DNA from: Dehalococcoidia bacterium
GTDB taxonomy: Bacteria; Chloroflexota; Dehalococcoidia; E44-bin15
DNA: 64,000 bases
Direction of reading: 5' to 3'
Assembly (NCBI GenBank): GCA_030610655.1
Contig: JAUWRG010000001.1
Coordinates: forward strand, 175-64,174
Shown piece after piece: positions 1-50,518 of this stretch (the first letter of the stretch is position 1; the number at the start of each line of letters is the position of its first letter). The translations under genes and the position numbers were made by a program. Below the pieces are notes generated by a model, which ran no database searches, had not been told where the DNA came from, and saw only the letters and a program-made list of their open reading frames with translations.

Positions 1-1
1 T

Positions 2-3000
2 GACAATATCAACCGCATCCTGAGTTCAACGGAAGCGGCACGGTTTGCCGTTGGCTACTTCTTCCTCTCCGGTCTCACCAGCATTGCCGACAAGCTCAAA
101 GGCGTAAAGGAGCTGCGCCTGCTCATCGGCAACACTACCAACCGTGAAACGCTGGAGCAGCTAGCCGAAGGATACCGGCGACTGGAACTGGTCAAAGACG
201 CCGCCGAGGCACAGGCATACCCCAAGAGAGCCGAAACCCGCCAAATGGCTAATGAGACTGCTGAAAACATCCGCTCCAGTATGGAGCTGATGGACCAGAC
301 TGATGAGGGAGAAACCCTGGTCAAAGAGATGGTGCGGATGATTGAAGAGAAGCGGCTCAAAGTAAAGGTCTACACCAAAGGTCGCTTACACGCCAAAGCA
401 TATATTTTTGACTATGGAATGTTGTTTGATAGCGACGGCAAGCCTGTTGAGCGCCACGAGAAGGGTATCGCCATCGTCGGCTCCTCAAACCTGACTCTAT
501 CGGGGGTGACTCACAATACGGAACTCAACGTGGTCGTCCAGGGCAATGATAACCATGCCGAACTGGTGCGCTGGTTTGATGACCTCTGGAAGGAAGCTCA
601 GGACTTTGATGAGATCTTGATGCAGGAGATGCAACAGTCCTGGGCTGTTATTCCCGTTAGACCATACGATATTTATATGAAAACACTCTATAGCCTGGTA
701 AAGGACAGAATTGAAGGAGGAGACGACAAAGATATTCTCTGGGATGATGAAATCACCAGAGATTTGGCAGATTTTCAGAAAGTAGCCGTAAGGCAGGCAT
801 TTCAAATGATTCGTGATTACGGGGGTGTTTTTATATCCGATGTAGTCGGACTTGGGAAATCATACATCGGGGCAGCTGTTATCAAGCACCTGGAGCGGAC
901 TGACCGTGTTAAACCTTTGATTATCTGTCCGGCTTCACTGGTGGATATGTGGGAAAGATATAACGAATTATATGAGCTGAACGCACGTGTGCTCTCAATG
1001 GGCTACTTGCATGAGGATGATGATGGTACCTCTGACATTCTTCTAAGGGACGTCATCTACCGTGAAAGGGACCTTATACTGATTGACGAAAGCCATAACT
1101 TTCGCTACTCCGACACACAGCGTTATAAGGTAATGCAGCGATTCTTAAGTACTGGTAAACGCTGCTGCTTTCTCACGGCTACGCCACGCAACAAGAGCGC
1201 GTGGGACGTGTACCACCAGATTAAACTCTTCCATCAAGACGACAAGACCGACTTGCCTATCGACCCGCCAGACCTGAGACAGTATTTCCGCCTTATTGAG
1301 AAAGGGGAAAAGAAGTTACCGGACTTGCTTGCCAATATCCTTATCAGGCGTACTCGTAACCATATCTTACGATGGTATGGGTTTGATTCAGTAACACATC
1401 AGCCAGTTGATCCCTCTCGTTTCAGAGAATATCTGGATGGCCATCGAAGAGCATATGTACTCGTGGGCGGACGACATCAATTCTTCCCTAAAAGAGAACT
1501 TGAAACCATCGAGTACAGCATTGAGGAAACCTATCAAGGGCTCTACCATGAAATACGCGGTTACCTGGGTAAGTCCCAAAAGGGTCAGCCGATTAAACCC
1601 CCGGTAAACGAACTTACTTATGCTCGTTACGGTCTCTGGAATTACGTTGTGAAGAGTAAACAGAGGCAAGAGCCTTATACCAATCTTCAACACGCGGGCG
1701 CAAACCTTCGTGGCTTGATCCGAGTATTACTTTTTAAACGCTTTGAATCCAGCGTATATGCTTTCAGAGAGACAATACGGAGACTTCTAACTACACATGA
1801 ACGATTTCTAGAGGCATTGCTACAAGGTATAGTGCCTGCAGGTGATGCTGCACAGGATATTCTCTACGAGCCAAACCAGGCAGAGGAGCAGGATTTGGTT
1901 GACGCTCTACGGCAAGCCTCAGGACGATACAAGGCTGAGGACTTTGATATGGACAGACTTCAAGAGCATATAGAGCATGATGTTCAGTTGCTTAGAAAAA
2001 TTCTGCAATTGGTTGAACCTATTACGTCGGAATATGATGACAAGCTTCAAACGCTAAAAAGATGGCTGGGGAAAATGCCACTCAAGGATGGCAAGCGGTT
2101 AGTCTTTACTCAATACGCTGATACGGCACGTTATTTGTTTGATAACCTTAACCCGGGAGGCAAGAGCGACGATATTGAAGTCATCTGCAGTGGAGATAAA
2201 AGCAAAGCCAGGGTAGTAGGTAGATTTGCTCCGAAAGCTAACCCGGACTATCACTTTGCATCCGGGGAATCCGAAATCACAACCCTTTTTGCTACCGATG
2301 TCTTGGCAGAAGGTCTAAACCTTCAGGACTGTGACAAGATTGTTAATTATGACTTACACTGGAGCCCGGTGCGTCTTATCCAGCGGTTCGGGCGAATTGA
2401 CCGTATTGGCTCAGACTACGATGTAATTTATGGCTATAACTTCCTTCCTGAAACTGGCATTGAGCGCAATTTGGGATTAAAACAAAAGCTGCATAACCGT
2501 ATTCAGGAAATCCACGATACTATCGGGGAAGACTCCGCCATTCTAGACCATACGGAACAACTTAATGAAGAGGCCATGTATGCCATTTATGAGAAAAAGG
2601 GAGGTCAACTAAGCCTGTTTGAAGATGAGGAAGATGAATTTGTGGACCTCAACGAAGCCGAAGAAATATTGAGGCAACTCAAAGGAGAAAAACCCGAAGA
2701 GTACGAGCGAATTTCTAACCTGAGGGATGGCATCCGTACTGCCAAATCGTCTAAGAGCAAGGGGCTTTATGTCTTTTGTCAGGCAGGAAACTACCAACAA
2801 TTGTTTCATTTAGATGAGGCAGGCAATATCATAACTAGGGATATCCCACGTATCCTTGGTACTATTAAATGTGGGCCAGCTCTTGAGGGCCAAAAATTAC
2901 CAGAGGGCTATAACACCGCTGTTATGAGAGTGAAACGCCAGTTTTCAGAAGAGTTCAAGCATCGTCAGGCTGAACGTGAGCATACCCTTTCTCTAAGTCA

Positions 3001-3292
3001 GGGGCAACGTTATGTGCTTCGGGAATTACGTGTCATGTTCAGTACGACCGAAGATGAGAATCTGAAGGCCCAAATTAACATTTTGGAGAAAGCATTCCGA
3101 GGGCCAGTGACCATGGCGGTTAATAAAGAGCTGAACAGGAGCCGACGAAATGGAATCATGGGGCAGAACCTGTTTGAAGTATTAAGGGACATTTATTCCC
3201 AACACAACATGCGGGAATGGTTGGACCGAAGGAACTTGCATACTGAGGAGCAGCCCATATCAAGGATTATTTGCAGCGAGTCCTTTAGTTAA
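2..3292 (+). CDS. PLD-family (HKD) nuclease domain fused to an SNF2/SWI2-family helicase; the 5' end lies outside the window
   Basis: The frame is open from position 2. There is an HxKxxxxD motif (GRLHAKAYIFDY), a DEAH-type motif II (LILIDESHNF), a helicase C-terminal domain and a Q..GR..R motif VI (QRFGRIDRIG). The ORF track gives 1015 aa from an internal Met. Confidence 0.75.
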   Translation, partial: DNINRILSSTEAARFAVGYFFLSGLTSIADKLKGVKELRLLIGNTTNRETLEQLAEGYRRLELVKDAAEAQAYPKRAETRQMANETAENIRSSMELMDQTDEGETLVKEMVRMIEEKRLKVKVYTKGRLHAKAYIFDYGMLFDSDGKPVERHEKGIAIVGSSNLTLSGVTHNTELNVVVQGNDNHAELVRWFDDLWKEAQDFDEILMQEMQQSWAVIPVRPYDIYMKTLYSLVKDRIEGGDDKDILWDDEITRDLADFQKVAVRQAFQMIRDYGGVFISDVVGLGKSYIGAAVIKHLERTDRVKPLIICPASLVDMWERYNELYELNARVLSMGYLHEDDDGTSDILLRDVIYRERDLILIDESHNFRYSDTQRYKVMQRFLSTGKRCCFLTATPRNKSAWDVYHQIKLFHQDDKTDLPIDPPDLRQYFRLIEKGEKKLPDLLANILIRRTRNHILRWYGFDSVTHQPVDPSRFREYLDGHRRAYVLVGGRHQFFPKRELETIEYSIEETYQGLYHEIRGYLGKSQKGQPIKPPVNELTYARYGLWNYVVKSKQRQEPYTNLQHAGANLRGLIRVLLFKRFESSVYAFRETIRRLLTTHERFLEALLQGIVPAGDAAQDILYEPNQAEEQDLVDALRQASGRYKAEDFDMDRLQEHIEHDVQLLRKILQLVEPITSEYDDKLQTLKRWLGKMPLKDGKRLVFTQYADTARYLFDNLNPGGKSDDIEVICSGDKSKARVVGRFAPKANPDYHFASGESEITTLFATDVLAEGLNLQDCDKIVNYDLHWSPVRLIQRFGRIDRIGSDYDVIYGYNFLPETGIERNLGLKQKLHNRIQEIHDTIGEDSAILDHTEQLNEEAMYAIYEKKGGQLSLFEDEEDEFVDLNEAEEILRQLKGEKPEEYERISNLRDGIRTAKSSKSKGLYVFCQAGNYQQLFHLDEAGNIITRDIPRILGTIKCGPALEGQKLPEGYNTAVMRVKRQFSEEFKHRQAEREHTLSLSQGQRYVLRELRVMFSTTEDENLKAQINILEKAFRGPVTMAVNKELNRSRRNGIMGQNLFEVLRDIYSQHNMREWLDRRNLHTEEQPISRIICSESFS

Positions 3293-3469
3293 GTTCTCGC
3301 AAATCGCCAATTTTTCAGAACCTATTTGCTGGACTTTCTATAGCCTGTAGTCAGGCTCTCCGAAATCGAATTGATATCCAACAAAGTAGCGATTTGTGTC
3401 CTTCCTGCCGCGACGATACTTGGCAGACCGTCAGCATGATACCATCCCTGTCGCCCTCCCCTTTAATAT

Positions 3470-5083
3470 CTAGTCAAAAATCGTGCTGCACTCTAAAAGC
3501 TCCACCGGTATCCCCACCTCTCGCTCTATGTCAAGGTAAACCCTCCCTGTAAGGTCGCGACCCCATCCTCCCAAACTGAAAGGGGATGATGGGATGACGA
3601 TCAAATCGGGTTTCCCCCCATTCCCCTTCAAATATTCCCTGATGAAGTCGATGAAGTCCTGAACCACGAGGAGGTCGCCCATGAAGATATTCCCCCCAAA
3701 GAAGCTATTCTGAGGGACCCCAATATCTATTCTTAGATTACCGAAGAGGTGGCTTTCGGCGAGCAATTGCTCGAATGTAGGCTTCACCAAGGCAGACGAT
3801 AGGAAAAGAACGTGTTTCGCATTATAGGAATCGATAACTCCTCTCAAACTCTCCAGATAGCTCAGCCTGAGTCCCGTGCCCATGAAAATCACCCCCAGGT
3901 GATGGTCAATCTCCTTGGAGTAGGGATAGCAGAAATCCTCCAGATTAACGCTTAGCTCAATGGACCGGCCCTCTCTTTCAACGGTAAGAGAGACCTCTCC
4001 AATCTCACTGCGCTGAAGGACAGAAAGAAGGTCCCGTGCCTGGGGTCGAGATGAGACGACAATGCTACCGATTTTCAAAACCTGGTCCCCTTTCTTCAAA
4101 CCTGCCCTGGCAGCGGGGGAGTTTTTCACCAAGCCCACGATCCCAGGCAGGTTTTTACGCCCCTTGCAGAGATTCTCCTCATAAATGCTGGGCATAACCA
4201 CAATAGGGCAGATGGCACTATTCCTGAGAATTCTAACAATGGAGATGACCTTTACCCAAACTTCTTCGAGGTCAAAGAGCTTCTCCTGAGAGAAGTACGT
4301 GGAGTAGCCGGGAAGGTTGACCTCCACCAGATGAGCGTCGTTGTGGTCAGCGTAAGCCACGGTGTTTGACAGGTCGTCAAGCATTTCACAAAGGGAATCT
4401 ACAGGCCAGGGAACGATGACCAGAGCATAGGGAATCCCAGCCTCTCTAAGCAAGGGCAAGGAATCAATAGCGACCTGCGGGTTTTTGCCTTTCATCAACC
4501 TTGTGCGGCGCGACGGGCAGACACTATTAAGGGAGAGATAAAGATATACTGGCTTTAACCTCTCCAATTGAGAGATGATTTCAGAGGTCAGAGACTCCCC
4601 ATTTGTGGTTATGCGAAACACCTTCGAGCTCTTCTGCCGGAGTAACTGAAGCACCTCCAAGAAATGGGGATGCATCATTACCTCATAAATGTCACCCAAG
4701 CTTGGGAATAAGCAGGAGCCCTGCTTGGGAAAGAAATAGTCCAGTCTTGTCCTCATCTCCTCAAATTCTTCGGCTGGTGGCCTCCGCAAATTGCCCAAGG
4801 CTAATGAGGGAGGATTACCCTTGTTGCAGCAGAAGATGCAATCGCAGTTACACCTTGACCCTGCATAGCCAAAGATCTCGCTAGGGTCACAAGCAGAGGG
4901 GGAAAGCCAATCCTTCAGATTCTTCAGCCGGAAGCCATCCACCTCGACCACCTCCCCATTCTTCTCGAGGTCGACCACTGATAGGAAGCTCTCCAGTTGC
5001 TTTTTGATGAGCTCTATCCTTGGTTCGTATAAAGAGGCATTCCTGATATCTTGAAAGGAATTCATACCGCACCCCTCAGCCAC
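3470..5083 (-). CDS. radical SAM protein with PDZ domain (PDZ/DUF512-type architecture)
   Basis: CX3CX2C motif (CNCDCIFC); PDZ-like segment (GLKKGDQVLKIGSIVV). Confidence 0.7.
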   Translation of the reverse strand: MAEGCGMNSFQDIRNASLYEPRIELIKKQLESFLSVVDLEKNGEVVEVDGFRLKNLKDWLSPSACDPSEIFGYAGSRCNCDCIFCCNKGNPPSLALGNLRRPPAEEFEEMRTRLDYFFPKQGSCLFPSLGDIYEVMMHPHFLEVLQLLRQKSSKVFRITTNGESLTSEIISQLERLKPVYLYLSLNSVCPSRRTRLMKGKNPQVAIDSLPLLREAGIPYALVIVPWPVDSLCEMLDDLSNTVAYADHNDAHLVEVNLPGYSTYFSQEKLFDLEEVWVKVISIVRILRNSAICPIVVMPSIYEENLCKGRKNLPGIVGLVKNSPAARAGLKKGDQVLKIGSIVVSSRPQARDLLSVLQRSEIGEVSLTVEREGRSIELSVNLEDFCYPYSKEIDHHLGVIFMGTGLRLSYLESLRGVIDSYNAKHVLFLSSALVKPTFEQLLAESHLFGNLRIDIGVPQNSFFGGNIFMGDLLVVQDFIDFIREYLKGNGGKPDLIVIPSSPFSLGGWGRDLTGRVYLDIEREVGIPVELLECSTIFD

Positions 5084-5085: not shown

Positions 5086-5337
5086 TTAAAGCGGACGTTC
5101 TTCGAAGAAATCCGATGATTCCTGTTCTTGGGGAAAAATCTTGTGTGTAGTCCTGCGATCCCGGAGCAGCTTGAACCCATCAAGCTTCACCTCACGCTGC
5201 CCCTCCACAGGGATAACAACGGCCAAGATATTCTCCAGTTGCGCTCTTATCATCTCCAAGAGGGGATCCCTAAACACTGGAGTTTTGTTGCTATCGAGTT
5301 TGTAACGGAAAACATAGTCTGCCATCCACCAAATCAC
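5086..5337 (-). CDS. small protein paralogous to the N-terminal ~80 aa of the downstream radical SAM-PDZ protein
   Basis: LLEMIRAQLENILAVVIPVEGQREVKLDGFKLLRDR aligns with IELIKKQLESFLSVVDLEKNGEVVEVDGFRLKNLKDW of ORF 3470-5083. It overlaps its neighbours by 4 bp at each end. Confidence 0.45.
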   Translation of the reverse strand: MIWWMADYVFRYKLDSNKTPVFRDPLLEMIRAQLENILAVVIPVEGQREVKLDGFKLLRDRRTTHKIFPQEQESSDFFEERPL

Positions 5338-6122
5338 CTCCCCTTAAAATCGGGCTTGCGCTTCTCGATAAAAGCTATCATCCCCTCCTTCCGGTCCTCA
5401 CCACTCTCCACTTTGTTTATGAGAGCCATCATCTCAGCCTCATCCTCAGCGCTCATCCTCCGCTGCTTCAGGAGCTTGTTGAAGATAGCCTTGGTGGCGC
5501 TCACCGCAAGCGGCCCGTTCTCGGCGATCTCTTGAGCTAAGGCATAGGTTTTTGCGAGCAATTCCTCTGCTGGAACCACATGATTCACCAGGCCAATCTC
5601 CTTTGCCAACTGGGCATTGATGAACCTGCCAGTGAAGAATAGCTCCTTTGCCCAGGCCACGCCTACAATATTGACTAAGCACTGGGTACCAACAGGCCAG
5701 TAGACACTGCCCATCTTAACCGGGTTTATCCCCATCCTTGCCGTATCAGCAGCGACGCGAATGTCACAGGCCGCAGCCAAATCGCAACCAGCGCCCACGG
5801 CGGCGCCGTAGATCATGGCAATAACTGGTTTGGTACAGGTGATAATACTTCCCCTGGCGTAGTCAAGGGGATTGCCTTTTTGAGCCATCTCATCTTCGGA
5901 TATTGTTATTTCCCCTCTTAGATCCATCCCGGCACAGAAGGCTTTCTCCCCCACACCCCTGAGCACCACAACCCTCACATCCGCATCGTCCTTTAAGGCA
6001 CATAACACATCGCCCAGCCGATACATCAGCTCTACTGTAAGGGCATTGCGCCTCTCTGGGCGATTGATAGCGAGGGTGCAGATATACTCGCCTTTTTCCA
6101 CAAAGAGCATCTCTTCAGCCAT
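5334..6122 (-). CDS. enoyl-CoA hydratase/isomerase (crotonase family)
   Basis: Crotonase-fold signature (FCAGMDL, AMIYGAAVGAGCDLAAACDIRVA). Tandem paralog of ORF 6267-7055. Confidence 0.85.
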   Translation of the reverse strand: MAEEMLFVEKGEYICTLAINRPERRNALTVELMYRLGDVLCALKDDADVRVVVLRGVGEKAFCAGMDLRGEITISEDEMAQKGNPLDYARGSIITCTKPVIAMIYGAAVGAGCDLAAACDIRVAADTARMGINPVKMGSVYWPVGTQCLVNIVGVAWAKELFFTGRFINAQLAKEIGLVNHVVPAEELLAKTYALAQEIAENGPLAVSATKAIFNKLLKQRRMSAEDEAEMMALINKVESGEDRKEGMIAFIEKRKPDFKGR

Positions 6123-6266: not shown

Positions 6267-7055
6267 TCACCTACCCTTAAAATCGGCCTTGCGCTTCTCA
6301 ATAAAAGCTATCATCCCTTCCCTTTGATCCTCGCTCTGTACCACAGTATCTCTGAGGGTCTCGATCTCAGCCTTGTCCTCAGCACTCATTTCCTGATACT
6401 TGAGGAGCTTGTTGAAGATGGCCTTAGTGGCACTCACCGCAAGCGGCCCGCTCTCAGCGATCTCCTGAGCCAGAGCATAGGTTGTGGCGGGCAATTCCCC
6501 CTCTGGAACCACATGGTTCACCAAGCCGATCTCCTTCGCCCTTTGGGCATCGATAAATCTGCCGGTGAAGAATAGCTCCTTTGCCCAGGCCACCCCTACC
6601 ACATTCATCACACCCTGGATACCCCCCGGGTGATAGATACTGCCAATCTTGACTGGGTTTATCCCCATCCTTGCCGTATCAGCAGCGACACGAATGTCAC
6701 AGGCAGCCGCGAGGTCGCAGCCAGCCCCCAGGGCATTTCCATAGATCATGGCAATAACCGGTTTGGTACAGGCTATAATACTCCCTCTGGCGTAGCCAAG
6801 GGGATCGCCTTTTTCCATCTTCTCACCTTCGCTAATCTGTATTCCCCCCCTCAGATCCAGCCCGGCACAGAAGGCTTTCTCCCCCGCACCCCTGAGCACC
6901 ACCACCCTCACGTCGCTATCATCCTTCAGGGCATTTAGCGCATCACCGATATTATACATTACATCTACGGTGAGGGCATTTCGCTTCTCCGGGCGATTGA
7001 TGGTGACAGTGCAGATGTAATCCTTCTTCTCTACGAGAACCACCTCTTCAGACAT
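6267..7055 (-). CDS. enoyl-CoA hydratase/isomerase (crotonase family), tandem paralog
   Basis: Aligns end-to-end with ORF 5334-6122 at about 75% aa identity by eye; both are 262 aa. Confidence 0.85.
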   Translation of the reverse strand: MSEEVVLVEKKDYICTVTINRPEKRNALTVDVMYNIGDALNALKDDSDVRVVVLRGAGEKAFCAGLDLRGGIQISEGEKMEKGDPLGYARGSIIACTKPVIAMIYGNALGAGCDLAAACDIRVAADTARMGINPVKIGSIYHPGGIQGVMNVVGVAWAKELFFTGRFIDAQRAKEIGLVNHVVPEGELPATTYALAQEIAESGPLAVSATKAIFNKLLKYQEMSAEDKAEIETLRDTVVQSEDQREGMIAFIEKRKADFKGR

Positions 7056-28981: not shown

Positions 28982-30040
28982 ATGAACGACCGCCTGGAAA
29001 AGCTGCGTCGCAAGATTGCCAGTGACGGACTGGATGCCATCCTCATCTCCCAGGGGGAGAACCGCCGCTATCTCAGCGGCTTCACCGGCTCGGCAGGCTT
29101 TCTCCTCATATCAGAGAAGAGCGCCATCTTGGCAACCGACTTTCGCTACACCGAGCAGGCGAAAAACCAGGCGTCCGATTTTGACATCGCCCGGATTGAG
29201 GGGGAGATGCAAAAGTGGTTCCCCAAACTCATTTCCTCGCTCGATGCGAAAAGAATAGGATTTGAAGCAAACGACCTTTCCTTTTCAACCTACCAGCAGC
29301 TCATGACGGCGGCGGGTGAGAAGGAACTCGTGCCCACTGAGGGATTTGTAGAGTCGTTGCGCGCCATAAAGGACGATAAGGAACTGGAGCTTATTACCAC
29401 GGCAGTGGAAATCTCCGATGCCGCATTCAACGAGGTCGCCTCGACTATCTGCCCAGGCATGACCGAAAAGCAGGTAGCATGGGAGCTGGAGAAAGCAATG
29501 CGCCAAAATGGCAGCGAACCCATGCCCTTCGAGATTATCGTAGCCTCGGGGCCAAATGCCGCCCTCGCCCACCACAAACCCACCGAGCGCACCATTCTTC
29601 AAGGTGAGCCGGTTATCATCGATATGGGGGCACGCATTGAGGGCTACTCCAGCGATCTGTCCAGAACCATTTGCCTTGGCAACCAGGACGAGGTTTTTGG
29701 TAAAATATATCATCTAGTTCTTCGCGCCCAGCTTGCCGCTATCGCCGCTGTCGAGGCGGGGATGAGTGGAGAGGAGGCAGATGGGCTCGCCAGGACGGTC
29801 ATCGAACAGGGAGGCTATGGGGATAATTTTGGACATGGACTGGGACACGGAGTTGGCCTTGCTCCCCATGAACAGCCTCGTCTGGGGAAAGGCTCTAAGG
29901 ATATTCTCACCGAAGGCATGGTATTCACCATCGAGCCGGGTATTTATATCAGCGGCTGGGGCGGGGTGAGGATCGAGGATACGGCGGTTCTGGAGAATGG
30001 CAAAACGAGGGTGCTCTCCAAAGCGAAGAAGACAGGTTGA
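28982..30040 (+). CDS. pepP: M24 family Xaa-Pro aminopeptidase
   Basis: Creatinase-like N-domain plus M24 pita-bread metal ligands (HGLGHGVG, IEPG). Confidence 0.85.
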   Translation: MNDRLEKLRRKIASDGLDAILISQGENRRYLSGFTGSAGFLLISEKSAILATDFRYTEQAKNQASDFDIARIEGEMQKWFPKLISSLDAKRIGFEANDLSFSTYQQLMTAAGEKELVPTEGFVESLRAIKDDKELELITTAVEISDAAFNEVASTICPGMTEKQVAWELEKAMRQNGSEPMPFEIIVASGPNAALAHHKPTERTILQGEPVIIDMGARIEGYSSDLSRTICLGNQDEVFGKIYHLVLRAQLAAIAAVEAGMSGEEADGLARTVIEQGGYGDNFGHGLGHGVGLAPHEQPRLGKGSKDILTEGMVFTIEPGIYISGWGGVRIEDTAVLENGKTRVLSKAKKTG

Positions 30041-30116
30041 CTTACCAAAGAGGCTTGCGACAGCCATAAAGCTTCACAATAAGAATCCAGGCCTAGTTCG
30101 AAAAGAGGGCGAAGAA

Positions 30117-30677
30117 ATGATCAGCACTGGTGAGCTAAAGAAGGGGATAACCATCGAGCTGGACGGTGAGCTTTACCAAATAATCGACTGGCAACATATC
30201 AAGGTAGGGCGAGGCAGCGCTCAGGTCAGGCTCAAGCTCCGCGATATTCGAGCAGGGCACACCATCGAGCGCACCTTCCAGGCAGGCGAGAAGTTTCCTC
30301 GAGCCAGATTGGACCGCAACACGGTGCAATTCCTTTACAACGATGGCGACCTATACTACTTCATGGACTCGGAAAGCTTCGAACAGTCCACGCTCAGTGG
30401 TAAGCAGGTCGGCGATGCCATCAACTACCTCAAGGAAGGTATGTCTCTAGACATACTTACCTACAAGGATGAACCGATAAACCTGGAGCTTCCCAACTCT
30501 GTGGAGCTTGAGGTTGTGGAAACCGACCCTGGCTTCAGAGGTAATACAGCAACTGCGGCGAACAAGCCAGCCAAGCTGGAAACAGGAATCACCATTCAGG
30601 TCCCTCTCTTCGTAGACAAGGGAGACATCGTCCGTGTTGATACTCGCACTGGCGCATACCTTGAAAGGGCAGGCTAG
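30117..30677 (+). CDS. efp: translation elongation factor P
   Basis: 186-aa EF-P with the KPGKGxA-loop equivalent (IKVGRGSAQVRLKLRD). An ATG at 30117 is preceded by a GAGGG RBS; the ORF track's 29997 start is an unlikely N-terminal extension. Confidence 0.9.
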   Translation: MISTGELKKGITIELDGELYQIIDWQHIKVGRGSAQVRLKLRDIRAGHTIERTFQAGEKFPRARLDRNTVQFLYNDGDLYYFMDSESFEQSTLSGKQVGDAINYLKEGMSLDILTYKDEPINLELPNSVELEVVETDPGFRGNTATAANKPAKLETGITIQVPLFVDKGDIVRVDTRTGAYLERAG

Positions 30678-30736: not shown

Positions 30737-33361
30737 ATGGCCTTGCATAGCATACTAAAATCAAAAGTTGCTGAATGGGAAAAATCTAATTATACCTCAG
30801 ATTATCCCGTTATTTCTGAGATTTTCAATTACAATCAAAATCCTGAAACTCAGAACTTGCCCTACTTACGAAAAGCCCAGTTTGAAGCCCTTGAAACTTA
30901 CTGGTATTTAAGACTTGTGGAGAAAACCCCTCACATTTTTGAACTCCATAATAGATTGTATCCTAATCCTTTAGATTTTCTGAAAGTCCTCGGAATACCC
31001 ACCGAGAATCAGGAAATTTTAGGACTGGCTTTAACAGGTGGCACAGACAGGATAATTGACCAGATAAGGACAAATGATGAGTTTGTAAAGAGGCATGGAC
31101 TTGAGACTGTAAGGGAAACTTTGACCCTTGAATATCCCAGTTATATCCTAGCTTTGGCAATGGGAGCAGGTAAGACCATCTTGATCGGCACAATTATCGC
31201 TACTGAATTTGCAATGGCTCTTGAATATCCAGAGAATAACTTCGTCAAAAATGCCCTAGTATTTGCGCCGGGTAAGACAATATTAGGAGCATTAAAGGAG
31301 TTATCGGATGTTCCCTATGAAAAAATATTGCCTGAAAGGCTTTATAAGCAGTTCATAACTACCACAAAATTTACCTATACCCGCGATGGCGAAAAAGACA
31401 TCCCGATAATCAAAGGCTCAAGTTTTAATATCGTAGTAACCAATACCGAAAAGATTAGAATACAAAAACACTCAATAACCAAATCCCTAATTAGAGATTT
31501 ATTTGTTGACCCATCCCGGGAAGATGAGGTAAAGGAGGCGATAGCCAATCAGAGATTGCAAACAATTGCCTCGCTTCCAAATCTTGCTATCTTTTCTGAT
31601 GAAGCACACCATACCTATGGACTGGCACTCGGTGAAGAACTGAAGAGAGTGAGACAAACAGTTAATTATCTGTCAGAAAAGACAAATGTTTTAGTTGTGA
31701 TAAACACCACGGGAACCCCATATTATAAAAGGCAGATCCTTAAAGATGTTATTTATTGGTATGGGCTATCACAAGGAATAAAAGATGGAATATTGAAAGA
31801 AGTCCGGGGCAATATTGTATCTTATCCAGAAGTAACCGACAAAGATTTCCTAAAAGATATTATCGCCGATTTCTTCAAGAATTATAAAGATGTAAAAATC
31901 TATGACGGCAGTCCTTCTAAACTGGCAATATATTTCCCCAAAATAGAGGATTTAAAGAATGCCAAACCAGTTGTTGAGAAAAACTTAATAGAACTCGGTT
32001 TAGACCCTTCTGTTATTTTAGAAGTCCATAATGAGTCAAAACAAGAGGTTAAGGATTTATTTGATAACCGAATAAATGACCCTCACCTACCTTATCGCAT
32101 ATTTCTTCTTGTTAATAAAGGGACTGAGGGATGGAACTGCTTATCCCTCTTTTCTACTGCCTTAGCACGCAAACTGACAGCAAGTAATAACTTTTGCCTT
32201 CAAGCCACCTCCCGCTGCCTCAGGCAAACTCCCGGCAATATACACAAGGCAAAAATATACCTTTCCAAAGATAATGTCGGAATTTTAGACGCCCAACTTA
32301 AAGAGACCTATGGTGAAACTCTTGAAGATTTAAATAGAACTTCACAAGATATGAGAGAGGATAGACTAATTTTGAGGAAAGTAGAAATACCACCTGTTTT
32401 ACTCAAAAAGAAGATTCGAAAAGTTCTGCCTAAAGAAGTGCTGTCAGATATTAGTCAAATGGAGTTTAAGAAGATTGAAGGAGAAAAAGAGAAGTTTAGA
32501 AAGACTATCCATAGCCTTGATGACATTCCTCAGAGGAAGGGAGTCTTAATTTTTGTAAGAGAAGAGGAGATAGAAATTATTGAAGATTTCGTGGATAGTT
32601 ATACCTTTGCTGTGGAACTATCAAGCCTTTATCGCCTACCCCTTATGTTAATATACGACAAATTGAAGGAGTTGTATCCCGAAGGCGAGATTCCTGAAAG
32701 CGATGCCATTGAACTTAAAAGGCAAATAGAAGAGCAAGTGCGAAACTACGAAATAAAAGAGGAAGAGGTAGAATTTGCCCTTGCTCTCATAAGACCCGAG
32801 GGCTTCAATAAGGAGGAAAAAGACGGCAAGAGTATATATGTAACCGAGATAGTCTATCATAAAGACAAGGAGAAATACCTATTAAAGTGGGATGAGTTTA
32901 AAGATAAATTTAAGAGAGACTTCGGCTTCCACTATAATCCCTATAAATTCGATTCTTCTCCTGAGAAGGAATTTTTTACCTGGCTTCTTGAAAACTTGAA
33001 CGAAGACCCGGCAGATGTTGAAGACATCTATTATACCGGTGGTATGGATGACCCCAATAAGACAGACTTTCTCTTTGAATATAAGGCTAAAGATGGCAGG
33101 TATCATAACTATGCACCTGATTTCCTGATAAGAAGAAAAAGTGGGAAAATAATAATTGTGGAGGTAAAAGCAGAGCGCTTCAAAGATGAAGAGAAGGAAA
33201 AGGAGATGAGAAGGATTGAAGGGCTAAACCCTGATAGATTAAAGTATGAAATTGTAGAGACCAAAGGTGAACAGCTAGCTTTTGAGGGTTTAAATAAAGT
33301 TAGAGAAGCAATCTATGAGTATGGCAGTAAAGGGGTAAATAAGAATGCTTACTCAGTCTGA
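30737..33361 (+). CDS. Type III restriction Res-like SF2 helicase with a C-terminal PD-(D/E)xK nuclease motif
   Basis: Motif I AMGAGKT, motif II FSDEAHH, motif III NTTGTP, motif VI QATSRCLRQ, and C-terminal PDFLIRRK...IIIVEVKAE. AT-rich codon usage unlike the flanking genes. Confidence 0.7.
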   Translation: MALHSILKSKVAEWEKSNYTSDYPVISEIFNYNQNPETQNLPYLRKAQFEALETYWYLRLVEKTPHIFELHNRLYPNPLDFLKVLGIPTENQEILGLALTGGTDRIIDQIRTNDEFVKRHGLETVRETLTLEYPSYILALAMGAGKTILIGTIIATEFAMALEYPENNFVKNALVFAPGKTILGALKELSDVPYEKILPERLYKQFITTTKFTYTRDGEKDIPIIKGSSFNIVVTNTEKIRIQKHSITKSLIRDLFVDPSREDEVKEAIANQRLQTIASLPNLAIFSDEAHHTYGLALGEELKRVRQTVNYLSEKTNVLVVINTTGTPYYKRQILKDVIYWYGLSQGIKDGILKEVRGNIVSYPEVTDKDFLKDIIADFFKNYKDVKIYDGSPSKLAIYFPKIEDLKNAKPVVEKNLIELGLDPSVILEVHNESKQEVKDLFDNRINDPHLPYRIFLLVNKGTEGWNCLSLFSTALARKLTASNNFCLQATSRCLRQTPGNIHKAKIYLSKDNVGILDAQLKETYGETLEDLNRTSQDMREDRLILRKVEIPPVLLKKKIRKVLPKEVLSDISQMEFKKIEGEKEKFRKTIHSLDDIPQRKGVLIFVREEEIEIIEDFVDSYTFAVELSSLYRLPLMLIYDKLKELYPEGEIPESDAIELKRQIEEQVRNYEIKEEEVEFALALIRPEGFNKEEKDGKSIYVTEIVYHKDKEKYLLKWDEFKDKFKRDFGFHYNPYKFDSSPEKEFFTWLLENLNEDPADVEDIYYTGGMDDPNKTDFLFEYKAKDGRYHNYAPDFLIRRKSGKIIIVEVKAERFKDEEKEKEMRRIEGLNPDRLKYEIVETKGEQLAFEGLNKVREAIYEYGSKGVNKNAYSV

Positions 33362-33818
33362 GGCAGATGCTTTAATCGATATGCGAAAGAAACTCGCCAA
33401 AAAAGAAGTGTATAATTTCCCTCCGGCTGGCGAAATATTAACTATTCCTATTATCTCTGTGGACGAAAGGGAATCTTTCTTGATAGATATAAACAGAGGA
33501 AGCATCAGGCTTACCAAATGCACTTATCAGGAACGCTACCAGAGGATAATTACCCTCGTGCGTCTTGATATCGATGGACCTCCACATCCTAATCCAGAGG
33601 TGGTGAATATTCCATTTCCTCACCTTGAACCCTATAACGGACAGACGATACCTTGTCCCCATTTACACCTCTATGTGGAAGGATTTATGGATAAATGGGC
33701 AATTCCATCTCCGTCTGAGAAATTTCCAAGAACAACCGACCTCGTTGCAATTCTAGCCGATTTCTTCCGCTACTGTAACGTTGTTGAACTACCGGCAATA
33801 CAAAGGGGGATGTCTTGA
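33345..33818 (+). CDS. hypothetical protein (157 aa), translationally coupled inside the res-mod-like operon
   Basis: Overlaps the upstream stop by 17 bp and the downstream start by 4 bp. I recognise no motif. Confidence 0.5.
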   Translation: MLTQSEADALIDMRKKLAKKEVYNFPPAGEILTIPIISVDERESFLIDINRGSIRLTKCTYQERYQRIITLVRLDIDGPPHPNPEVVNIPFPHLEPYNGQTIPCPHLHLYVEGFMDKWAIPSPSEKFPRTTDLVAILADFFRYCNVVELPAIQRGMS

Positions 33819-34582
33819 TTTTAAAAGACTGTCAAGATTTGGTTAATGCTTATATTGAATGGCTTCAACAGAGAATTAACGTAGAAGATATAAAAGGAGT
33901 TTGTGAGATTACCACCCCCTTTGTTGATAGACACAATGACCAGCTACAGATATATGTCAAGCCTTCTAATAATAGGCTCATTCTTACAGATGATGGCTAT
34001 ACCATTAAAGACTTAAAAATAAGTGGATTTGAAATTACAACTGAAAAAAGACGACAAATACTCTATTCTATATTAAATGGTTTTGCTGTCCAACTTCATG
34101 GAGATGAGCTTACTGTGGAAGCAACGCCGGATAACTTTGCCCAAAAAAAGCATAATCTTATTCAGACTATGCTTGCGGTAAATGACCTTTGGACTATGAC
34201 TGAACCAATGGTAGCAAGCCTTTTTAGAGAAGATGTAGAAAGATACTTGCGCGAGCATAAAATCCGATTTACTCCCTCAATCAAGTTTGCTGGAAAGAGC
34301 GGTTTAGACCATTCTTTTGATTTTGTAATTCCGGCTTCGCCTGTAAAACCAGAAAGAATACTCAATGCCATTAGCAATCCGACACGGCAAAATATCTCCT
34401 TGCTAATCTTTTCTTGGACTGAGATAACAGAAGTGAGAGCACCCGATTCTACTGCCTATGGAGTTTTAAATGATACAGAGAAACAGGTAAGTCCTGATCT
34501 TATTGATGCACTCCAGCGGTATTATATTAGACCTATACAATGGAGCCGTAGAGCTGAGTATGTTGAGGAACTCGCATCATAA
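33815..34582 (+). CDS. hypothetical protein (255 aa) resembling DUF1828/DUF1829-type proteins
   Basis: The motif EITTPFVDRHNDQLQIYV...LILTDDGYTIKDL matches my recollection of the DUF1828 N-terminal signature. Not verified. Confidence 0.45.
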   Translation: MILKDCQDLVNAYIEWLQQRINVEDIKGVCEITTPFVDRHNDQLQIYVKPSNNRLILTDDGYTIKDLKISGFEITTEKRRQILYSILNGFAVQLHGDELTVEATPDNFAQKKHNLIQTMLAVNDLWTMTEPMVASLFREDVERYLREHKIRFTPSIKFAGKSGLDHSFDFVIPASPVKPERILNAISNPTRQNISLLIFSWTEITEVRAPDSTAYGVLNDTEKQVSPDLIDALQRYYIRPIQWSRRAEYVEELAS

Positions 34583-34593
34583 GGGATAAGGCT

Positions 34594-36603
34594 ATGGCTG
34601 AGAATAAAATCAAGATTACCCCCGCTAAAGGGCGACCAATGCTTCACTGGGTGGGCAAAAAGCCTTCGGATTATGTAAAAGGCTTCCCTACTCAACTTGT
34701 TGAAGTTTTTGACCCGTTGAATAATGGGCAGAGAATTGAAACGCCGACTTACGATGAACTAAAAGACAACTGGCAAAACTTACTCTTTCACGGTGATAAC
34801 AAAGATGTTTTAGCCACACTTCTTGAATTAGGATTTAGGGGAAAGATTGATTTAATTTATATTGACCCGCCATTTAAAAGCGGCGCTGATTATGTAAGAA
34901 AGATTGAACTGCGGGGATTAAAGAATTTAGGGCGAATAGAAGAAGATGAGGCGTCACTACTTCAGCAGACAATGTATTTTGATATTTGGAACAATGACAG
35001 CTATTTGCAGTTTATGTATCATAGATTGATACTTTTGAAGGAGTTATTAAGTGATGCAGGAAGCATTTGTCTGCATTGCGATTATAGACAAAATAGTTAT
35101 TTGAGATTGATAATGGATGAAATTTTTGGTGCGGATAATTTCAGAAATGAAATTATTGTGCGAAGAGGGGTCAAAAGCCTTCAAGCCCAGTTTGATATGA
35201 TCGATTCCTTATCCTCTGGTAATGACACTATCTTGGCGTATGTAAAAGATCCCAATACAAAGTTTAAAAAGTTAGAAATTGAACTTACAGAATCGCGGCA
35301 AGGGACTTGGAATAACCATTGGAGAGGCACTGATCGCCCTACGATGCGATATGAATTATTTGGGATAACACCAACACACGGCCAATGGCGATGGAGTAAA
35401 GAACGCTCAATGAACGCTATTGAGAATCATAAGGCATTTCTCAAGGTGGCAGACAAGTATTCAAGCATTGACGAGTATTATTTGGAGAAGAAAGCAGCCG
35501 GAATTGAACTAGATTTCTTGCGTCTTAACAATAAAGGGAAACCAGAACATTATGTGCCGACTACAGACATTAGACTTTCAAGTACGCTATGGACTGACAT
35601 CTCTGCATATGATAGTGGCTCTTCCTTTCAGACACAAAAAAGTGAGGAATTACTTGAAAGAATCATTGATTGGTTAACCAACCCCGGCGAACTCGTCCTT
35701 GACTGTTTCATCGGCTCGGGCACAACTGCTGCTGTTGCTCAGAAACTTGGCCGGCGATGGATTGGCTGCGATATAAACAAAGGGGCAATTCAGACGACAA
35801 GCAAGAGGTTACAAAAGGTAATTCTTGAACAGATAAAATCCCCCTCTAATCCCCCTTTATTAAAGGGGGAAGTAGGGGGATTTGCTGTTTACAAGGTCAA
35901 TGACTACGATTTGCAACTTTTAAGAACCGAGGCGATTGAACTTGCCGTCCAGCATATCGGTATTCAGAAGATAAGAACCGATGCATTCTTTGACGGATAC
36001 CTGGGGAAAAACCTAGTTAAAGTTATTGACTTCAACCATCCATTAACTCTTTTGGATTTACAACTTCTTCAAGACGAACTCAAGAAAAGACCAGATGAAG
36101 ATAGGGATATTACCATCGTCTGCCTTGGCAAAGAATTAGCCGTCGACCCCGAAATTGAAAAATGGAATAAAAAACACCCAGTAAATAAGATTAAAGTAAT
36201 TGAATTAAAAACAGATAAAAAATATGGCAGTTTCTTAATCCATAAACCAGCGGAGGCAAAGATAGAGATTCTTCCCCTTCACTTCGTTCAGGGTCAGAAT
36301 GACAGATTGGCAATAATAGAGATTCAAGATTTTATCTCACCTACCATAATTGAGCGGCTTAATATTGATAATACTCTTTTCAAAGTAAAAATCCCCGACT
36401 TTAGAAGTATGATAGACACAGTTTTGATTGACACAAATTACGATGGTAAAACCTTCCATATAGTTCATTCAGATGTTCCAAAGAGGAAAGATGACTTAGT
36501 CAAAGGAAAATATGAAATCGAGCTTCCAAAATCAAAAACAAAAGTCGCAGTAAAAATAATTGATATGCTTGGAGAAGAGATTATAAATGTTTTCGAGGTA
36601 TAA
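34594..36603 (+). CDS. beta-class N6-adenine/N4-cytosine DNA methyltransferase, Type III Mod-like
   Basis: Motif IV IDLIYIDPPFKSG precedes motif I VLDCFIGSGTTAAVA (beta circular order); N-terminal LLFHGDNKDVLATL; 669 aa. Confidence 0.8.
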   Translation: MAENKIKITPAKGRPMLHWVGKKPSDYVKGFPTQLVEVFDPLNNGQRIETPTYDELKDNWQNLLFHGDNKDVLATLLELGFRGKIDLIYIDPPFKSGADYVRKIELRGLKNLGRIEEDEASLLQQTMYFDIWNNDSYLQFMYHRLILLKELLSDAGSICLHCDYRQNSYLRLIMDEIFGADNFRNEIIVRRGVKSLQAQFDMIDSLSSGNDTILAYVKDPNTKFKKLEIELTESRQGTWNNHWRGTDRPTMRYELFGITPTHGQWRWSKERSMNAIENHKAFLKVADKYSSIDEYYLEKKAAGIELDFLRLNNKGKPEHYVPTTDIRLSSTLWTDISAYDSGSSFQTQKSEELLERIIDWLTNPGELVLDCFIGSGTTAAVAQKLGRRWIGCDINKGAIQTTSKRLQKVILEQIKSPSNPPLLKGEVGGFAVYKVNDYDLQLLRTEAIELAVQHIGIQKIRTDAFFDGYLGKNLVKVIDFNHPLTLLDLQLLQDELKKRPDEDRDITIVCLGKELAVDPEIEKWNKKHPVNKIKVIELKTDKKYGSFLIHKPAEAKIEILPLHFVQGQNDRLAIIEIQDFISPTIIERLNIDNTLFKVKIPDFRSMIDTVLIDTNYDGKTFHIVHSDVPKRKDDLVKGKYEIELPKSKTKVAVKIIDMLGEEIINVFEV

Positions 36604-36645: not shown

Positions 36646-36667
36646 TAGATGCAGCTATATTCTGTTA
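36646..36667. repeat. right copy of the 22-bp direct repeat; contains the functional xseA start codon
   Basis: See 30675-30697. Confidence 0.8.
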
Positions 36668-45215: not shown

Positions 45216-45291
45216 TTTTCAGCACTAGTTGAATATTACTTTCAATAAAAAGATCAAAATAACGCTGCTCTTGGAGCAGTGTCAAATAGAA

Positions 45292-45723: not shown

Positions 45724-45740
45724 ATCTAACTTCCAATTCT

Positions 45741-50503: not shown

Positions 50504-50518
50504 AGAGCCTCCTTTAGT

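What the first reader, a model, noticed from the sequence alone, without database searches (positions are those of the whole stretch)
1..3292. PLD (HKD) nuclease fused to an SNF2-family helicase, truncated at the window edge
The reading frame is open from base 2. It has an HxKxxxxD motif (GRLHAKAYIFDY) N-terminal to DEAH-box and helicase-C motifs. PLD-nuclease plus SWI2/SNF2 ATPase fusions are characteristic of restriction or defence-type DNA translocases. The partner genes would lie upstream of the window. The 3' neighbour is convergent, so this is the last gene of its cluster.
Basis: partly seen in the sequence, partly recalled or inferred. Interest (0 to 1): 0.55.

Follow-up and report, generated by a model that had tools for sequence, protein, structure and literature searches.

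The report
PLD-nuclease/SNF2 restriction motor, methylase-partnered
The window opens 15 codons into a gene for a DNA-cutting (PLD) domain fused to a SNF2 DNA motor; this is the conserved last gene of a widespread but untested restriction-like defence module, whose partner, a large adenine methyltransferase, lies upstream off the window with other defence genes often inserted between the two.

Summary
Window 2..3292 (+) is one open frame of 1096 codons. It carries a single HxKxxxxD/GSSN PLD nuclease domain, a complete Swi2/Snf2 ATPase core (GLGKS, DESH, TATP, QRFGRIDRIG) and an unassigned C-terminal domain of about 250 aa. Only 15 codons are missing: the full protein is 1111 aa.

A 99.94%-identical metagenome contig adds 88 bp upstream. 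It shows the gene abutting the stop codon of a HEPN gene.

In 51 non-redundant related loci, a 1000-1300 aa Eco57I/MmeI/PglX-type N6-adenine methyltransferase lies upstream on the same strand. In 41 of them, 1-8 variable genes sit between the two: OLD/Gabija-like and HEC-01 ABC ATPases, MNT-HEPN, AbiE, PDC-S01, Schlafen, and PIN/HipA/ParE toxins. Sequence downstream of the helicase and upstream of the methylase is unrelated from locus to locus.

There is no DUF1998/DrmAB, so this is not DISARM. There is no DUF499 or DUF3780, so it is not Hma or a Type-2 BREX-related system.

The best reading is the ATP-dependent translocase-nuclease of a two-gene, methylation-based restriction-like module that also hosts embedded defence genes. 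This is a new variant of a known kind, of moderate interest.

The parts
2..3292 (+). PLD(HKD)-Swi2/Snf2 protein, codons 16-1111 plus the stop codon. The first 15 codons lie off the window.
   Evidence: Open frame. The 1111-aa homologue P0001 differs at 3 residues. PADLOC C3a139 'HKD+Snf2' scores 9e-80.
17..589 (+). N-terminal PLD-family nuclease domain with a helical insertion. It has the Nuc/NucT-like fold.
389..412 (+). The only HxKxxxxD catalytic motif (HAKAYIFD, residues 145-152).
   Evidence: Regex scan. H145, K147 and their neighbours are >=98% conserved among 65 clade members. H or K is lost in 10 of 68 distant representatives.
479..490 (+). GSSN motif of the PLD active site (residues 175-178).
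818..1363 (+). SNF2 ATPase lobe 1. It holds Walker A GLGKS (848-862), DESH (1085-1096) and TATP (1175-1186).
   Evidence: Pfam SNF2-rel_dom, 31.2 bits. G300, K301, D377, E378, H380 and A408-P410 are invariant in all 68 representatives down to 28% identity; the other positions of these motifs are near-invariant.
2042..2410 (+). SNF2 ATPase lobe 2 (Helicase_C), with motif VI QRFGRIDRIG at 2381-2410.
   Evidence: Pfam Helicase_C, 50 bits. Q809, R810, G812, R813 and R816 are invariant. Profile against PDB: RapA 3.7e-27, SsoRad54 2e-25.
2534..3289 (+). C-terminal region (residues 860-1111): a disordered acidic linker, then a small beta-sheet plus a helical bundle. No family assigned. It is the least conserved part of the protein.
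3293..3469 (.). Intergenic gap to the convergent radical-SAM/PDZ gene, marking the 3' boundary of the module.
   Evidence: No terminator-like or promoter-like site was found.

Best explanation
The gene encodes the ATP-dependent translocase-nuclease of a two-gene restriction-like defence module. I call this protein HEL below. It is the restriction half of the module.

Its obligate partner is a 1000-1300 aa gamma-class N6-adenine methyltransferase of the Eco57I/MmeI/PglX type. That enzyme carries its own target-recognition region and lacks the endonuclease domain of Type IIG enzymes. In this organism it lies upstream, outside the window.

Proposed mechanism:
1. The methyltransferase marks host sites. 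(Inferred.)
2. The methyltransferase, not the helicase, supplies sequence specificity. (Inferred: the helicase is far too conserved to match each methylase's specificity.)
3. At unmethylated sites the methyltransferase loads or licenses the SNF2 motor.
4. The motor translocates along double-stranded DNA using ATP.
5. Two single-HKD PLD domains then pair to form one active site and cut the DNA, as in Nuc/BfiI and the PLD-helicase enzyme SauUSI.

What is shown: the domain architecture, the intact catalytic motifs, the fold, the conserved gene pairing, and the embedded cargo. What is inferred: protection by methylation, complex formation, translocation and cleavage.

The gap between the two core genes is a co-oriented insertion site for other defence and toxin-antitoxin genes. 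In this organism the gene directly upstream is a HEPN gene; in relatives this HEPN gene is paired with an MNT nucleotidyltransferase gene.
For: Architecture and motifs:
- Pfam PLDc_2 + SNF2-rel_dom + Helicase_C, all above cut-off.
- One HKD motif plus GSSN, GLGKS, DESH, TATP and motif VI, all conserved in 65 clade members.
- The core ATPase residues are invariant in 68 representatives down to 28% identity.

Fold:
- AlphaFold model with pLDDT 83 and pTM 0.75.
- PDB profile search: RapA 3.7e-27.

Partner:
- Of 86 fetched loci, 54 have a cluster-1 protein (median 1073 aa).
- In the window's clade it is always upstream on the same strand.
- It is present in about 32 of 35 loci that have at least 9 kb of upstream sequence.
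- Pfam Eco57I, MmeI_Mtase, M_Eco57I_C. Best PADLOC hits are Type IIG RE-MTases, but the matches start after the nuclease part of those profiles.
- NPPY is present in 32 of 32 full-length copies.
- The pairing persists at 27-38% identity in archaea and bacteria, including Synechocystis pSYSX, Pelobacter pPRO1, and Rhodococcus, Thermococcus and Halorussus plasmids.

Specificity argument:
- In the same 29 loci, HEL pairwise identity has a median of 68% and the methyltransferase 35%.

Module boundaries:
- Genes upstream of the methyltransferase are unrelated housekeeping genes.
- Genes downstream of HEL are unrelated between loci.

Embedded cargo:
- 41 of 51 loci hold 1-8 ORFs between the core genes, and 106 of 128 are co-oriented.
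- They include OLD/GajA, HEC-01A, PDC-S01, AbiE, MNT/HEPN, Schlafen, HipA, PIN and ParE.

This organism:
- Contig L001 is 99.94% identical to the window over 13,292 bp.
- It shows '...WIRNNHSELAREI*' ending 1 bp before the ATG. This is homologous to the HEPN gene of L002-L005, where the order is MTase, OLD, MNT, HEPN, HEL.

Literature precedents:
- SauUSI dimerises through its PLD domains and translocates (PMC7913695).
- HKD-Swi2/Snf2 has been predicted as the restriction effector of Type-2 BR systems (PMC12839542).
Against: - No member of this family has been tested. Methylation, restriction, protein-protein contact and cleavage are all inferred.
- The methyltransferase of this particular organism was not seen. 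Both the window and the only near-identical contig stop within 90 bp of the gene's start.
- About three loci with at least 9 kb of upstream sequence show no methyltransferase, and one (L043) holds only a truncated copy.
- 10 of 68 distant representatives have lost the HKD His or Lys while keeping the ATPase. Cleavage by the fused PLD is therefore not universal in the superfamily.
- The C-terminal domain is unassigned and could itself read DNA or modification.
- ORFs in the related loci were called with a simple longest-ORF procedure, so counts of embedded genes are approximate.
Confidence: 0.7

Rival explanations
1. It is the helicase of a Type-2 BREX-related (Hma-like, DUF499-centred) system. 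Those systems combine a DUF499 ATPase, an N6-MTase, an HKD-Swi2/Snf2 helicase and DUF3780.
For: It has the same helicase architecture (N-terminal HKD, Swi2/Snf2 core) and an N6-adenine methyltransferase partner. The embedded cargo is of the same kinds: OLD-ABC, HEPN, Schlafen (PMC12839542). The HEC-01A genes found here were first defined as Hma-embedded (10.1101/2024.01.29.577857).
Against: No third conserved gene exists. After HEL (86 loci) and the MTase (54 loci), the next-largest neighbour cluster is found in only 9 loci. Neither DUF499 nor DUF3780 is among the most frequent families in 106 embedded ORFs or 71 ORFs upstream of the methylase. In 10 loci the two genes are directly adjacent and flanked by unrelated genes. 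The PADLOC HmaA model matches only 164 residues of lobe 2, at 3.5e-22.
Confidence: 0.07
2. It is a remnant or variant of class 1 DISARM, with DrmC (PLD) fused to DrmD (SNF2) beside DrmMI.
For: PADLOC and NCBIfam DrmD models give the next-best hits (1.7e-36; 146 bits). DrmC gives a weak hit to the PLD domain. The methylase weakly matches DrmMI at 2e-18.
Against: The NCBIfam DrmD score of 146 is far below the cut-off of 610. DrmA and DrmB/DUF1998, which define DISARM, are not among the conserved neighbour clusters or the most frequent Pfam families. The methylase matches Type IIG profiles much better than DrmMI.
Confidence: 0.05
3. It is a stand-alone, modification-dependent (Type IV) ATP-dependent endonuclease like SauUSI, and the nearby methylase is unrelated.
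Against: The methylase is syntenic and co-oriented across bacteria and archaea down to 27% identity. Start and stop codons often overlap. No DUF3427-type recognition domain was detected. The motor is SNF2-type rather than SauUSI-type.
Confidence: 0.07
4. It has a non-defence role: a RapA-like transcription or repair remodeller, or an epigenetic regulator pair.
For: RapA is the closest solved relative by sequence profile and aligns over most of its length in Foldseek.
Against: - It carries a fused PLD nuclease with an intact active site.
- Identity is 56-80% (tblastn) across many phyla, which implies horizontal transfer.
- It sits in different chromosomal contexts in every locus.
- It occurs on plasmids.
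- Defence and toxin-antitoxin cargo sits between the two genes.
- GC content is 0.47-0.48 against about 0.52-0.54 for the neighbours.
Confidence: 0.04
5. It is a type III CRISPR-Cas accessory protein, which is the origin of the best-matching PADLOC model, C3a139.
For: The best PADLOC hit, PDLC01075 'C3a139 HKD+Snf2', scores 9e-80. The model derives from 4 genes found next to type III cas cassettes (PMC6546367).
Against: No Cas family appears among the most frequent Pfam or PADLOC families of the embedded and upstream ORFs. No Cas domain appears among the genes listed for the annotated loci. The original association rested on 4 loci and is what defence-island clustering would produce.
Confidence: 0.02

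Closest known systems
Type-2 BREX-related (BR) systems / Hma-like systems (Rakesh & Krishnan 2026, PMC12839542; Payne et al. 2024 preprint, 10.1101/2024.01.29.577857; Liu et al. 2024, PMC11232893)
   Same: The restriction effector has an N-terminal HKD endoDNase fused to a Swi2/Snf2 helicase. The partner is an N6-adenine methyltransferase. The operon is co-oriented and acts as an insertion hotspot for OLD/ABC ATPases, HEPN, Schlafen and similar genes.
   Different: There is no DUF499 AAA+ ATPase and no DUF3780 gene, so the core has two genes. The HmaA profile matches only lobe 2 of the ATPase.
Class 1 DISARM (DrmD SNF2 helicase, DrmMI adenine methylase, DrmA, DrmB, DrmC PLD)
   Same: The same three activities are present: SNF2 motor, PLD nuclease, and a large Eco57I-type N6A methylase. 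Targeting of unmethylated DNA is presumed.
   Different: PLD and SNF2 are fused into one protein. DrmA and DrmB (DUF1998) are absent. The DrmD family score is far below its cut-off.
SauUSI (Type IV ATP-dependent PLD-helicase endonuclease, PDB 7CLG; PMC7913695)
   Different: SauUSI works alone and cuts modified DNA through its own recognition domain. The protein here has a SNF2-type motor, no detectable SauUSI-type recognition domain, and a constant methylase partner.
BREX PglX / Type IIG (MmeI, Eco57I) methyltransferases (for the partner gene)
   Same: Gamma-class N6A methylase with Eco57I, MmeI_Mtase and M_Eco57I_C domains and an NPPY motif.
   Different: Matches to Type IIG profiles begin after their N-terminal endonuclease region. 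The nuclease function sits in the separate PLD-SNF2 protein, and no PglZ or BrxC is present.
RapA (bacterial Swi2/Snf2 RNA-polymerase recycling factor)
   Same: It is the closest solved relative of the motor by sequence profile, at 3.7e-27.
   Different: RapA has no nuclease, no methylase partner, and a conserved housekeeping role.

Membership tests
PLD (HKD) superfamily nuclease | HxKxxxxD motif with a downstream GSxN motif; Pfam PLDc_2 above the gathering score. | tested here: met
   HAKAYIFD at 145-152 and GSSN at 175-178. PLDc_2 scores 47.8 bits against a cut-off of 27. The motif is conserved in 65 clade members.
PLD (HKD) superfamily nuclease | Nuc-type fold. | tested here: met
PLD (HKD) superfamily nuclease | Two HKD motifs forming one active site, either two in one chain or through homodimerisation. 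| not testable with these tools
   There is only one HKD motif per chain. Dimerisation is inferred from Nuc, BfiI and SauUSI (PMC7913695).
Swi2/Snf2 family ATPase | SNF2-rel_dom plus Helicase_C domains, with motifs I, II (DExH), III (TATP-like) and VI (QxxGRxxRxG). | tested here: met
Class 1 DISARM | DrmD equivalog score. | tested here: not met
   NF038317 scores 146.3 bits against a cut-off of 610. NF038318 scores 88 against 950.
Class 1 DISARM | DrmA helicase and DrmB (DUF1998) in the operon. | tested here: not met
   No conserved third neighbour cluster exists in 86 loci. DUF1998 is not among the most frequent families in 106 embedded or 71 upstream ORFs. This organism's own upstream region was not seen.
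Type-2 BR / Hma system | Helicase with an N-terminal HKD endoDNase and a Swi2/Snf2 core, plus an N6-MTase. | tested here: met
   The definition is taken from PMC12839542.
Type-2 BR / Hma system | A DUF499 AAA+ ATPase as the central component. | tested here: not met
   No conserved large ATPase neighbour was found, and DUF499 is absent from the frequent-family lists. In 10 loci the MTase and HEL are adjacent and flanked by unrelated genes.
Type-2 BR / Hma system | A stand-alone DUF3780 gene, present in 98% of Type-2 BR loci. | tested here: not met
   It is not among the families matched by 2 or more embedded ORFs, nor among the 25 listed for upstream ORFs.
NCBIfam NF042964, phospholipase D-like domain-containing anti-phage protein | Equivalog score of at least 1100 bits. 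| tested here: not met
   145.8 bits.
PADLOC PDLC01075 'C3a139 HKD+Snf2' (type III CRISPR accessory candidate, PMC6546367) | Full-length match to the profile. | tested here: met
   E-value 9e-80. Residues 3-921 match profile positions 15-828 of 948. This model has no curated cut-off.
PADLOC PDLC01075 'C3a139 HKD+Snf2' (type III CRISPR accessory candidate, PMC6546367) | Location next to type III cas cassettes. | tested here: not met
   No Cas family appears among the most frequent families of the embedded and upstream ORFs or among the genes listed for the annotated loci.
SauUSI-type Type IV enzyme | Acts alone, with its own modified-DNA recognition domain (DUF3427) and no cognate methylase. 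| tested here: not met
   No such domain was detected. A methylase partner is constant.

The most novel reading that the evidence does not exclude
The methylase and PLD-SNF2 genes form a conserved two-gene 'frame' whose interior is a dedicated docking site for defence cargo. On this reading, the unusually slow-evolving helicase gene (median 68% identity across phyla, against 35% for the methylase and 30-65% for the cargo) serves two roles. It is the shared effector, and it is the homologous anchor through which cargo cassettes are swapped between lineages. The embedded OLD/HEPN/Abi genes would be co-transcribed and would act as functionally coupled back-up effectors rather than passengers.
Probability: 0.25. 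Interest if true: 0.6.

Novelty: new variant of a known kind. Interest (0 to 1): 0.38.

Why it matters
This family is very large. There were about 7,700 hits in the 90%-clustered collection, and 1,716 clusters at 50% identity with E <= 1e-30. It spans bacteria and archaea, and a member sits on plasmid pSYSX of the model cyanobacterium Synechocystis PCC 6803. Public annotation nevertheless says only 'helicase-related protein' and 'DNA methyltransferase'. No defence-system catalogue I could query names the two-gene module.

The module would be the minimal form of the methylase + SNF2 + PLD logic seen in class 1 DISARM and in Hma/BREX-related systems. That makes it a simpler system for working out how a PglX-type methylase licenses a translocase-nuclease.

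Its interior is also a rich, co-oriented insertion site, so it is a further hunting ground for new defence genes found by being embedded in known systems.

For this window specifically, the finding is an ordinary defence gene cut by the window edge.

Tried and rejected
- First AlphaFold run, using 78 homologues at 75-94% identity, gave pLDDT 56.7. I discarded it and re-ran with 68 sequences down to 28% identity, which gave pLDDT 83.
- I tried to reach this organism's upstream genes through the identical-protein look-up. The only contig ends 44 bp before the ATG. The genome-contig scan returned no closer relative than 80% identity.
- Promoter and terminator scan of 3100-3700 found nothing.
- The phage collection gave only 3 weak partial matches, so the gene is not phage-borne.
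- The sequence search of the PDB with the single protein gave only weak SNF2 hits. The profile search was more informative.
- The full-length fold searches were dominated by the SNF2 core. No match could be assigned to the C-terminal domain.
- Considered and rejected on missing defining partners: DISARM, Hma/Type-2 BR and CRISPR accessory. PbeA matches only the N-terminal third, at 1e-12, and ZorD, DpdE and BrxH match only the motor domain.
- A first attempt to add hand-picked ORFs to the upstream set failed on wrong coordinates.
Full report
1. THE OBSERVATION

Translation of window 2..3292 (+) gives 1096 codons without a stop and ends at TAA/TGA 3290-3292. The ORF lister reports only 245..3292, because it needs a start codon.

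Pfam places three domains, all above curated cut-offs:
- a PLD-like domain at aa 6-196 (47.8 bits; cut-off 27);
- an SNF2-related domain at 273-454 (31.2; cut-off 24.9);
- Helicase_C at 681-803 (50; cut-off 23.5).

A 1111-aa protein from public metagenomes (P0001) covers the whole translation. It differs at three residues, 356, 366 and 370. The window therefore lacks only codons 1-15.

A regex scan finds one HxKxxxxD motif (HAKAYIFD, residues 145-152 in full-length numbering). It also finds the accompanying GSSN (175-178), Walker A GLGKS (298-302), DESH (377-380) and motif VI QRFGRIDRIG (809-818). There is one HKD motif, not two, and the box is DExH rather than DEAH.

The 3' neighbour is a radical-SAM/PDZ protein on the minus strand at 3470..5083, so it is convergent. 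It is followed by ordinary metabolic genes: two enoyl-CoA hydratases, a Na+-decarboxylase beta subunit, a biotin carrier, a carboxyltransferase and RtcB. The gene's GC content (0.47-0.48) is somewhat below that of its neighbours (0.51-0.54).

2. WHAT LIES UPSTREAM IN THIS ORGANISM

The exact-protein look-up returned contig ERZ4219663 NODE_707 (L001). It carries the same downstream genes and is 99.94% identical to the window over 13,292 bp, with 8 mismatches and no gaps. It extends 88 bp beyond window base 1 and then ends.

Its first 44 bp encode '...WIRNNHSELAREI*', and the stop codon is directly followed by the ATG of the helicase gene. This is the C-terminus of a HEPN-domain protein. It is homologous to the gene at the same position in the 93%-identical relatives L002-L005 ('...EEWIRNNHPELAGEM*'; Pfam HEPN).

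In those relatives the operon reads:
- Eco57I/MmeI-type methyltransferase (1197 aa);
- OLD-family ATPase-TOPRIM (568 aa);
- MNT nucleotidyltransferase;
- HEPN;
- PLD-SNF2.

The gene in the window is therefore not the first gene of its unit. Its immediate upstream neighbour is a HEPN gene; in relatives this HEPN gene follows an MNT gene as part of the embedded cargo. The methyltransferase of this organism was not seen.

3. THE CONSERVED PARTNER

I fetched 80 loci from species-representative genomes, at 56-80% identity (tblastn best segment). They come from Chloroflexota, Verrucomicrobiota, Planctomycetota, Acidobacteriota, Desulfobacterota, Nitrospirota, Poribacteria, Cyanobacteria and others. 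I called ORFs and clustered them with the six metagenome loci.

- Besides the helicase (86 loci), only one neighbour cluster is common. It is a protein of median 1073 aa, found in 54 loci.
- The next-largest cluster occurs in 9 loci.
- The common protein always lies upstream on the same strand.
- It is present in about 32 of 35 loci that offer at least 9 kb of upstream sequence, counting a truncated copy in L043.
- It has Pfam Eco57I, MmeI_Mtase, N6_Mtase and M_Eco57I_C domains.
- All 32 full-length copies carry NPPY.
- Its best PADLOC matches are Type IIG restriction-methylase profiles, but the matches start at profile positions of about 100-200. It therefore lacks the N-terminal endonuclease part of those profiles. 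DrmMI, PglX and mad2 match only weakly.

Genes upstream of the methylase are unrelated housekeeping genes such as GatB, Lon and lipid A acyltransferase. Two of the 71 are integrases. Genes downstream of the helicase differ from locus to locus. The unit is thus bounded by the methylase and the helicase.

The pairing survives to much lower identity:
- An archaeal-context relative at 38% identity has helicase then methylase, with overlapping stop and start codons.
- Plasmid-borne relatives at 27-33% identity all sit beside a large 'DNA methyltransferase', in either order. These are in Halorussus, Thermococcus, Pelobacter pPRO1, Rhodococcus pR8C1 and Synechocystis PCC 6803 pSYSX.

4. GENES EMBEDDED BETWEEN THE TWO CORE GENES

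Of 51 non-redundant loci holding both genes:
- 10 have them adjacent (gap of 160 bp or less);
- 41 have 1-8 ORFs between them, with gaps of up to 8.5 kb;
- 106 of the 128 intervening ORFs are on the same strand as the core genes.

Scanning the 106 co-oriented ORFs shows the following:
- ABC/OLD-type ATPases (AAA_15, AAA_21, OLD TOPRIM; PADLOC Old, GajA, AriA and HEC-01A, up to 1e-160), together with DUF4276;
- AAA_14+DUF4143 (PDC-S01);
- SPL-like radical-SAM proteins;
- Schlafen/AlbA_2 proteins;
- MNT and HEPN;
- AbiEi/AbiEii;
- HipA, PIN, ParE, Fic and HTH proteins.

The Thermococcus plasmid has AbiEii embedded, and pSYSX has a VapC pair. This is the same 'embedding' phenomenon described for Hma, BREX, DISARM and Type I R-M systems (10.1101/2024.01.29.577857; PMC11232893; PMC12839542).

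5. THE PROTEIN ITSELF

Within the clade (65 sequences), every catalytic motif of both enzymes is at least 98% conserved.

Across 68 representatives down to 28% identity, the core ATPase residues are invariant: G300, K301, D377, E378, H380, A408-P410, Q809, R810, G812, R813 and R816. The HKD His or Lys is replaced in 10 of the 68. The motor therefore appears indispensable, while the fused nuclease has been inactivated in some distant lineages.

The helicase is far more conserved than its partners in the same loci:
- helicase median pairwise identity 68%, against 35% for the methylase;
- helicase 69-84%, against 30-65% for the MNT/HEPN pair.

An AlphaFold model built on a diverse alignment is confident, with pLDDT 83 and pTM 0.75. 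A first model from a shallow alignment was poor and was discarded.

Structure and profile comparisons:
- Foldseek gives the same picture, with RapA aligning over most of its length.
- A profile search of PDB sequences puts RapA (3.7e-27) and SsoRad54 (2e-25) on top.

Residues 860-1111 have no family assignment. They comprise an acidic disordered linker, a small beta-sheet and a helical bundle, and they are the least conserved part of the protein.

6. MECHANISM

Shown:
- a single-HKD PLD nuclease fused to an intact SNF2 double-strand DNA translocase;
- constant genetic linkage to an active-looking, specificity-bearing N6-adenine methylase that lacks a nuclease of its own;
- horizontal spread, with locations on plasmids and in defence islands.

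Inferred:
- The methylase protects host DNA.
- Because the helicase is too conserved to co-vary with each methylase's specificity, recognition of unmethylated sites must come from the methylase, which recruits or licenses the motor.
- ATP-driven translocation brings two PLD domains together to form a complete active site and cleave. The experimental precedent is SauUSI, which is a dimer held together by its PLD domains and translocates after target recognition (PMC7913695).

I put 0.7 on the identification as the restriction half of a methylase-linked two-gene module. I put roughly 0.45 on the detailed order of events.

7. COMPARISON WITH KNOWN SYSTEMS

PADLOC's best model, 'C3a139 HKD+Snf2' (9e-80), comes from a survey of genes next to type III CRISPR loci. 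It rests on four occurrences (PMC6546367). No Cas family appears among the frequent families or listed genes of the loci examined here.

DISARM class 1 shares the three activities, but its defining components DrmA and DrmB (DUF1998) are not among the conserved neighbours, and the DrmD family score is 146 against a cut-off of 610.

The closest described architecture is the helicase of 'Type-2 BREX-related' systems: an HKD-Swi2/Snf2 helicase with an N6-MTase, a DUF499 ATPase and DUF3780 (PMC12839542). Here neither DUF499 nor DUF3780 is a conserved neighbour, and the HmaA profile matches only lobe 2 of the ATPase.

NCBIfam's 'phospholipase D-like anti-phage protein' is also not met, at 146 bits against 1100. 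RefSeq calls the plasmid copies 'helicase-related protein'.

I therefore file this as a two-gene variant of the methylase + SNF2 + PLD class. It works like these systems but is not a member of DISARM, Hma/BR or the SauUSI type.

8. VERDICT

For the window itself this is an ordinary defence gene clipped by the window edge.

At family level it is a very large group: about 7,700 hits, and 1,716 clusters at 50% identity with E <= 1e-30. It is untested and unnamed, and it is a minimal module that also serves as an insertion site for other defence genes. Interest is moderate, at 0.38.

Noticed in passing
window 30737-36603 (+): A low-GC island (GC 0.39-0.42, against about 0.52 around it) sits between efp (29997-30677) and xseA (36649-37812). 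It holds a ResIII-type helicase (874 aa), DUF6978, a DUF1828/DUF1829 protein and an N6_N4 DNA methylase (669 aa). This is probably a second, unrelated type III-like R-M module with two small genes embedded between the helicase and the methylase.
   Followed up: partly
window 1067-1111 (codons 356-370 of the helicase): Of the 8 mismatches between the window and the 99.94%-identical contig L001 over 13.3 kb, 3 are non-synonymous and fall within 15 codons (D356A, V366I, E370D). They lie in the least conserved loop of ATPase lobe 1.
   Followed up: no
L001 1-44 / window base 1: The near-identical metagenome contig ends 44 bp upstream of the helicase start codon, and the window starts 88 bp further in. 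The assembly therefore breaks just where the variable cargo region begins, possibly because of strain heterogeneity or repeated MNT-HEPN genes.
   Followed up: no
alignment A4 (representatives P0124, P0129, P0136, P0141, P0146, P0158, P0159, P0168, P0170, P0171): Ten of 68 distant family representatives have lost the catalytic His or Lys of the HKD motif while keeping the core ATPase residues. These lineages have a dead PLD domain. I did not check whether they carry an embedded nuclease instead.
   Followed up: partly
L091 (Synechocystis sp. PCC 6803 plasmid pSYSX, record 43696-51129): A model cyanobacterium carries a family member (SGL_RS01585, 'helicase-related protein'), followed by a small hypothetical gene plus a VapC toxin gene and then a 1100-aa 'DNA methyltransferase' (SGL_RS01600). 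This is a tractable place to test the module.
   Followed up: no
L043 6702-8099: One of the few loci that seemed to lack the methylase holds only its first 466 codons (77% identical to the L039 methylase). This is a truncated or disrupted methylase upstream of an intact helicase.
   Followed up: no
window 5334-6122 and 6267-7055 (-): Two tandem enoyl-CoA hydratase paralogues, about 80% identical at the DNA level, lie next to genes for a Na+-translocating decarboxylase set (OAD_beta, biotin carrier, carboxyltransferase). RtcB follows; in L001 an archease gene follows RtcB.
   Followed up: no
L006 4476-11469: In the 89%-identical Chloroflexota relative, the helicase is followed by a dense defence island: GmrSD/Schlafen, DUF6998, DUF2779, SRA-HNH, NT5C and an HSDR_N protein.
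   Followed up: no
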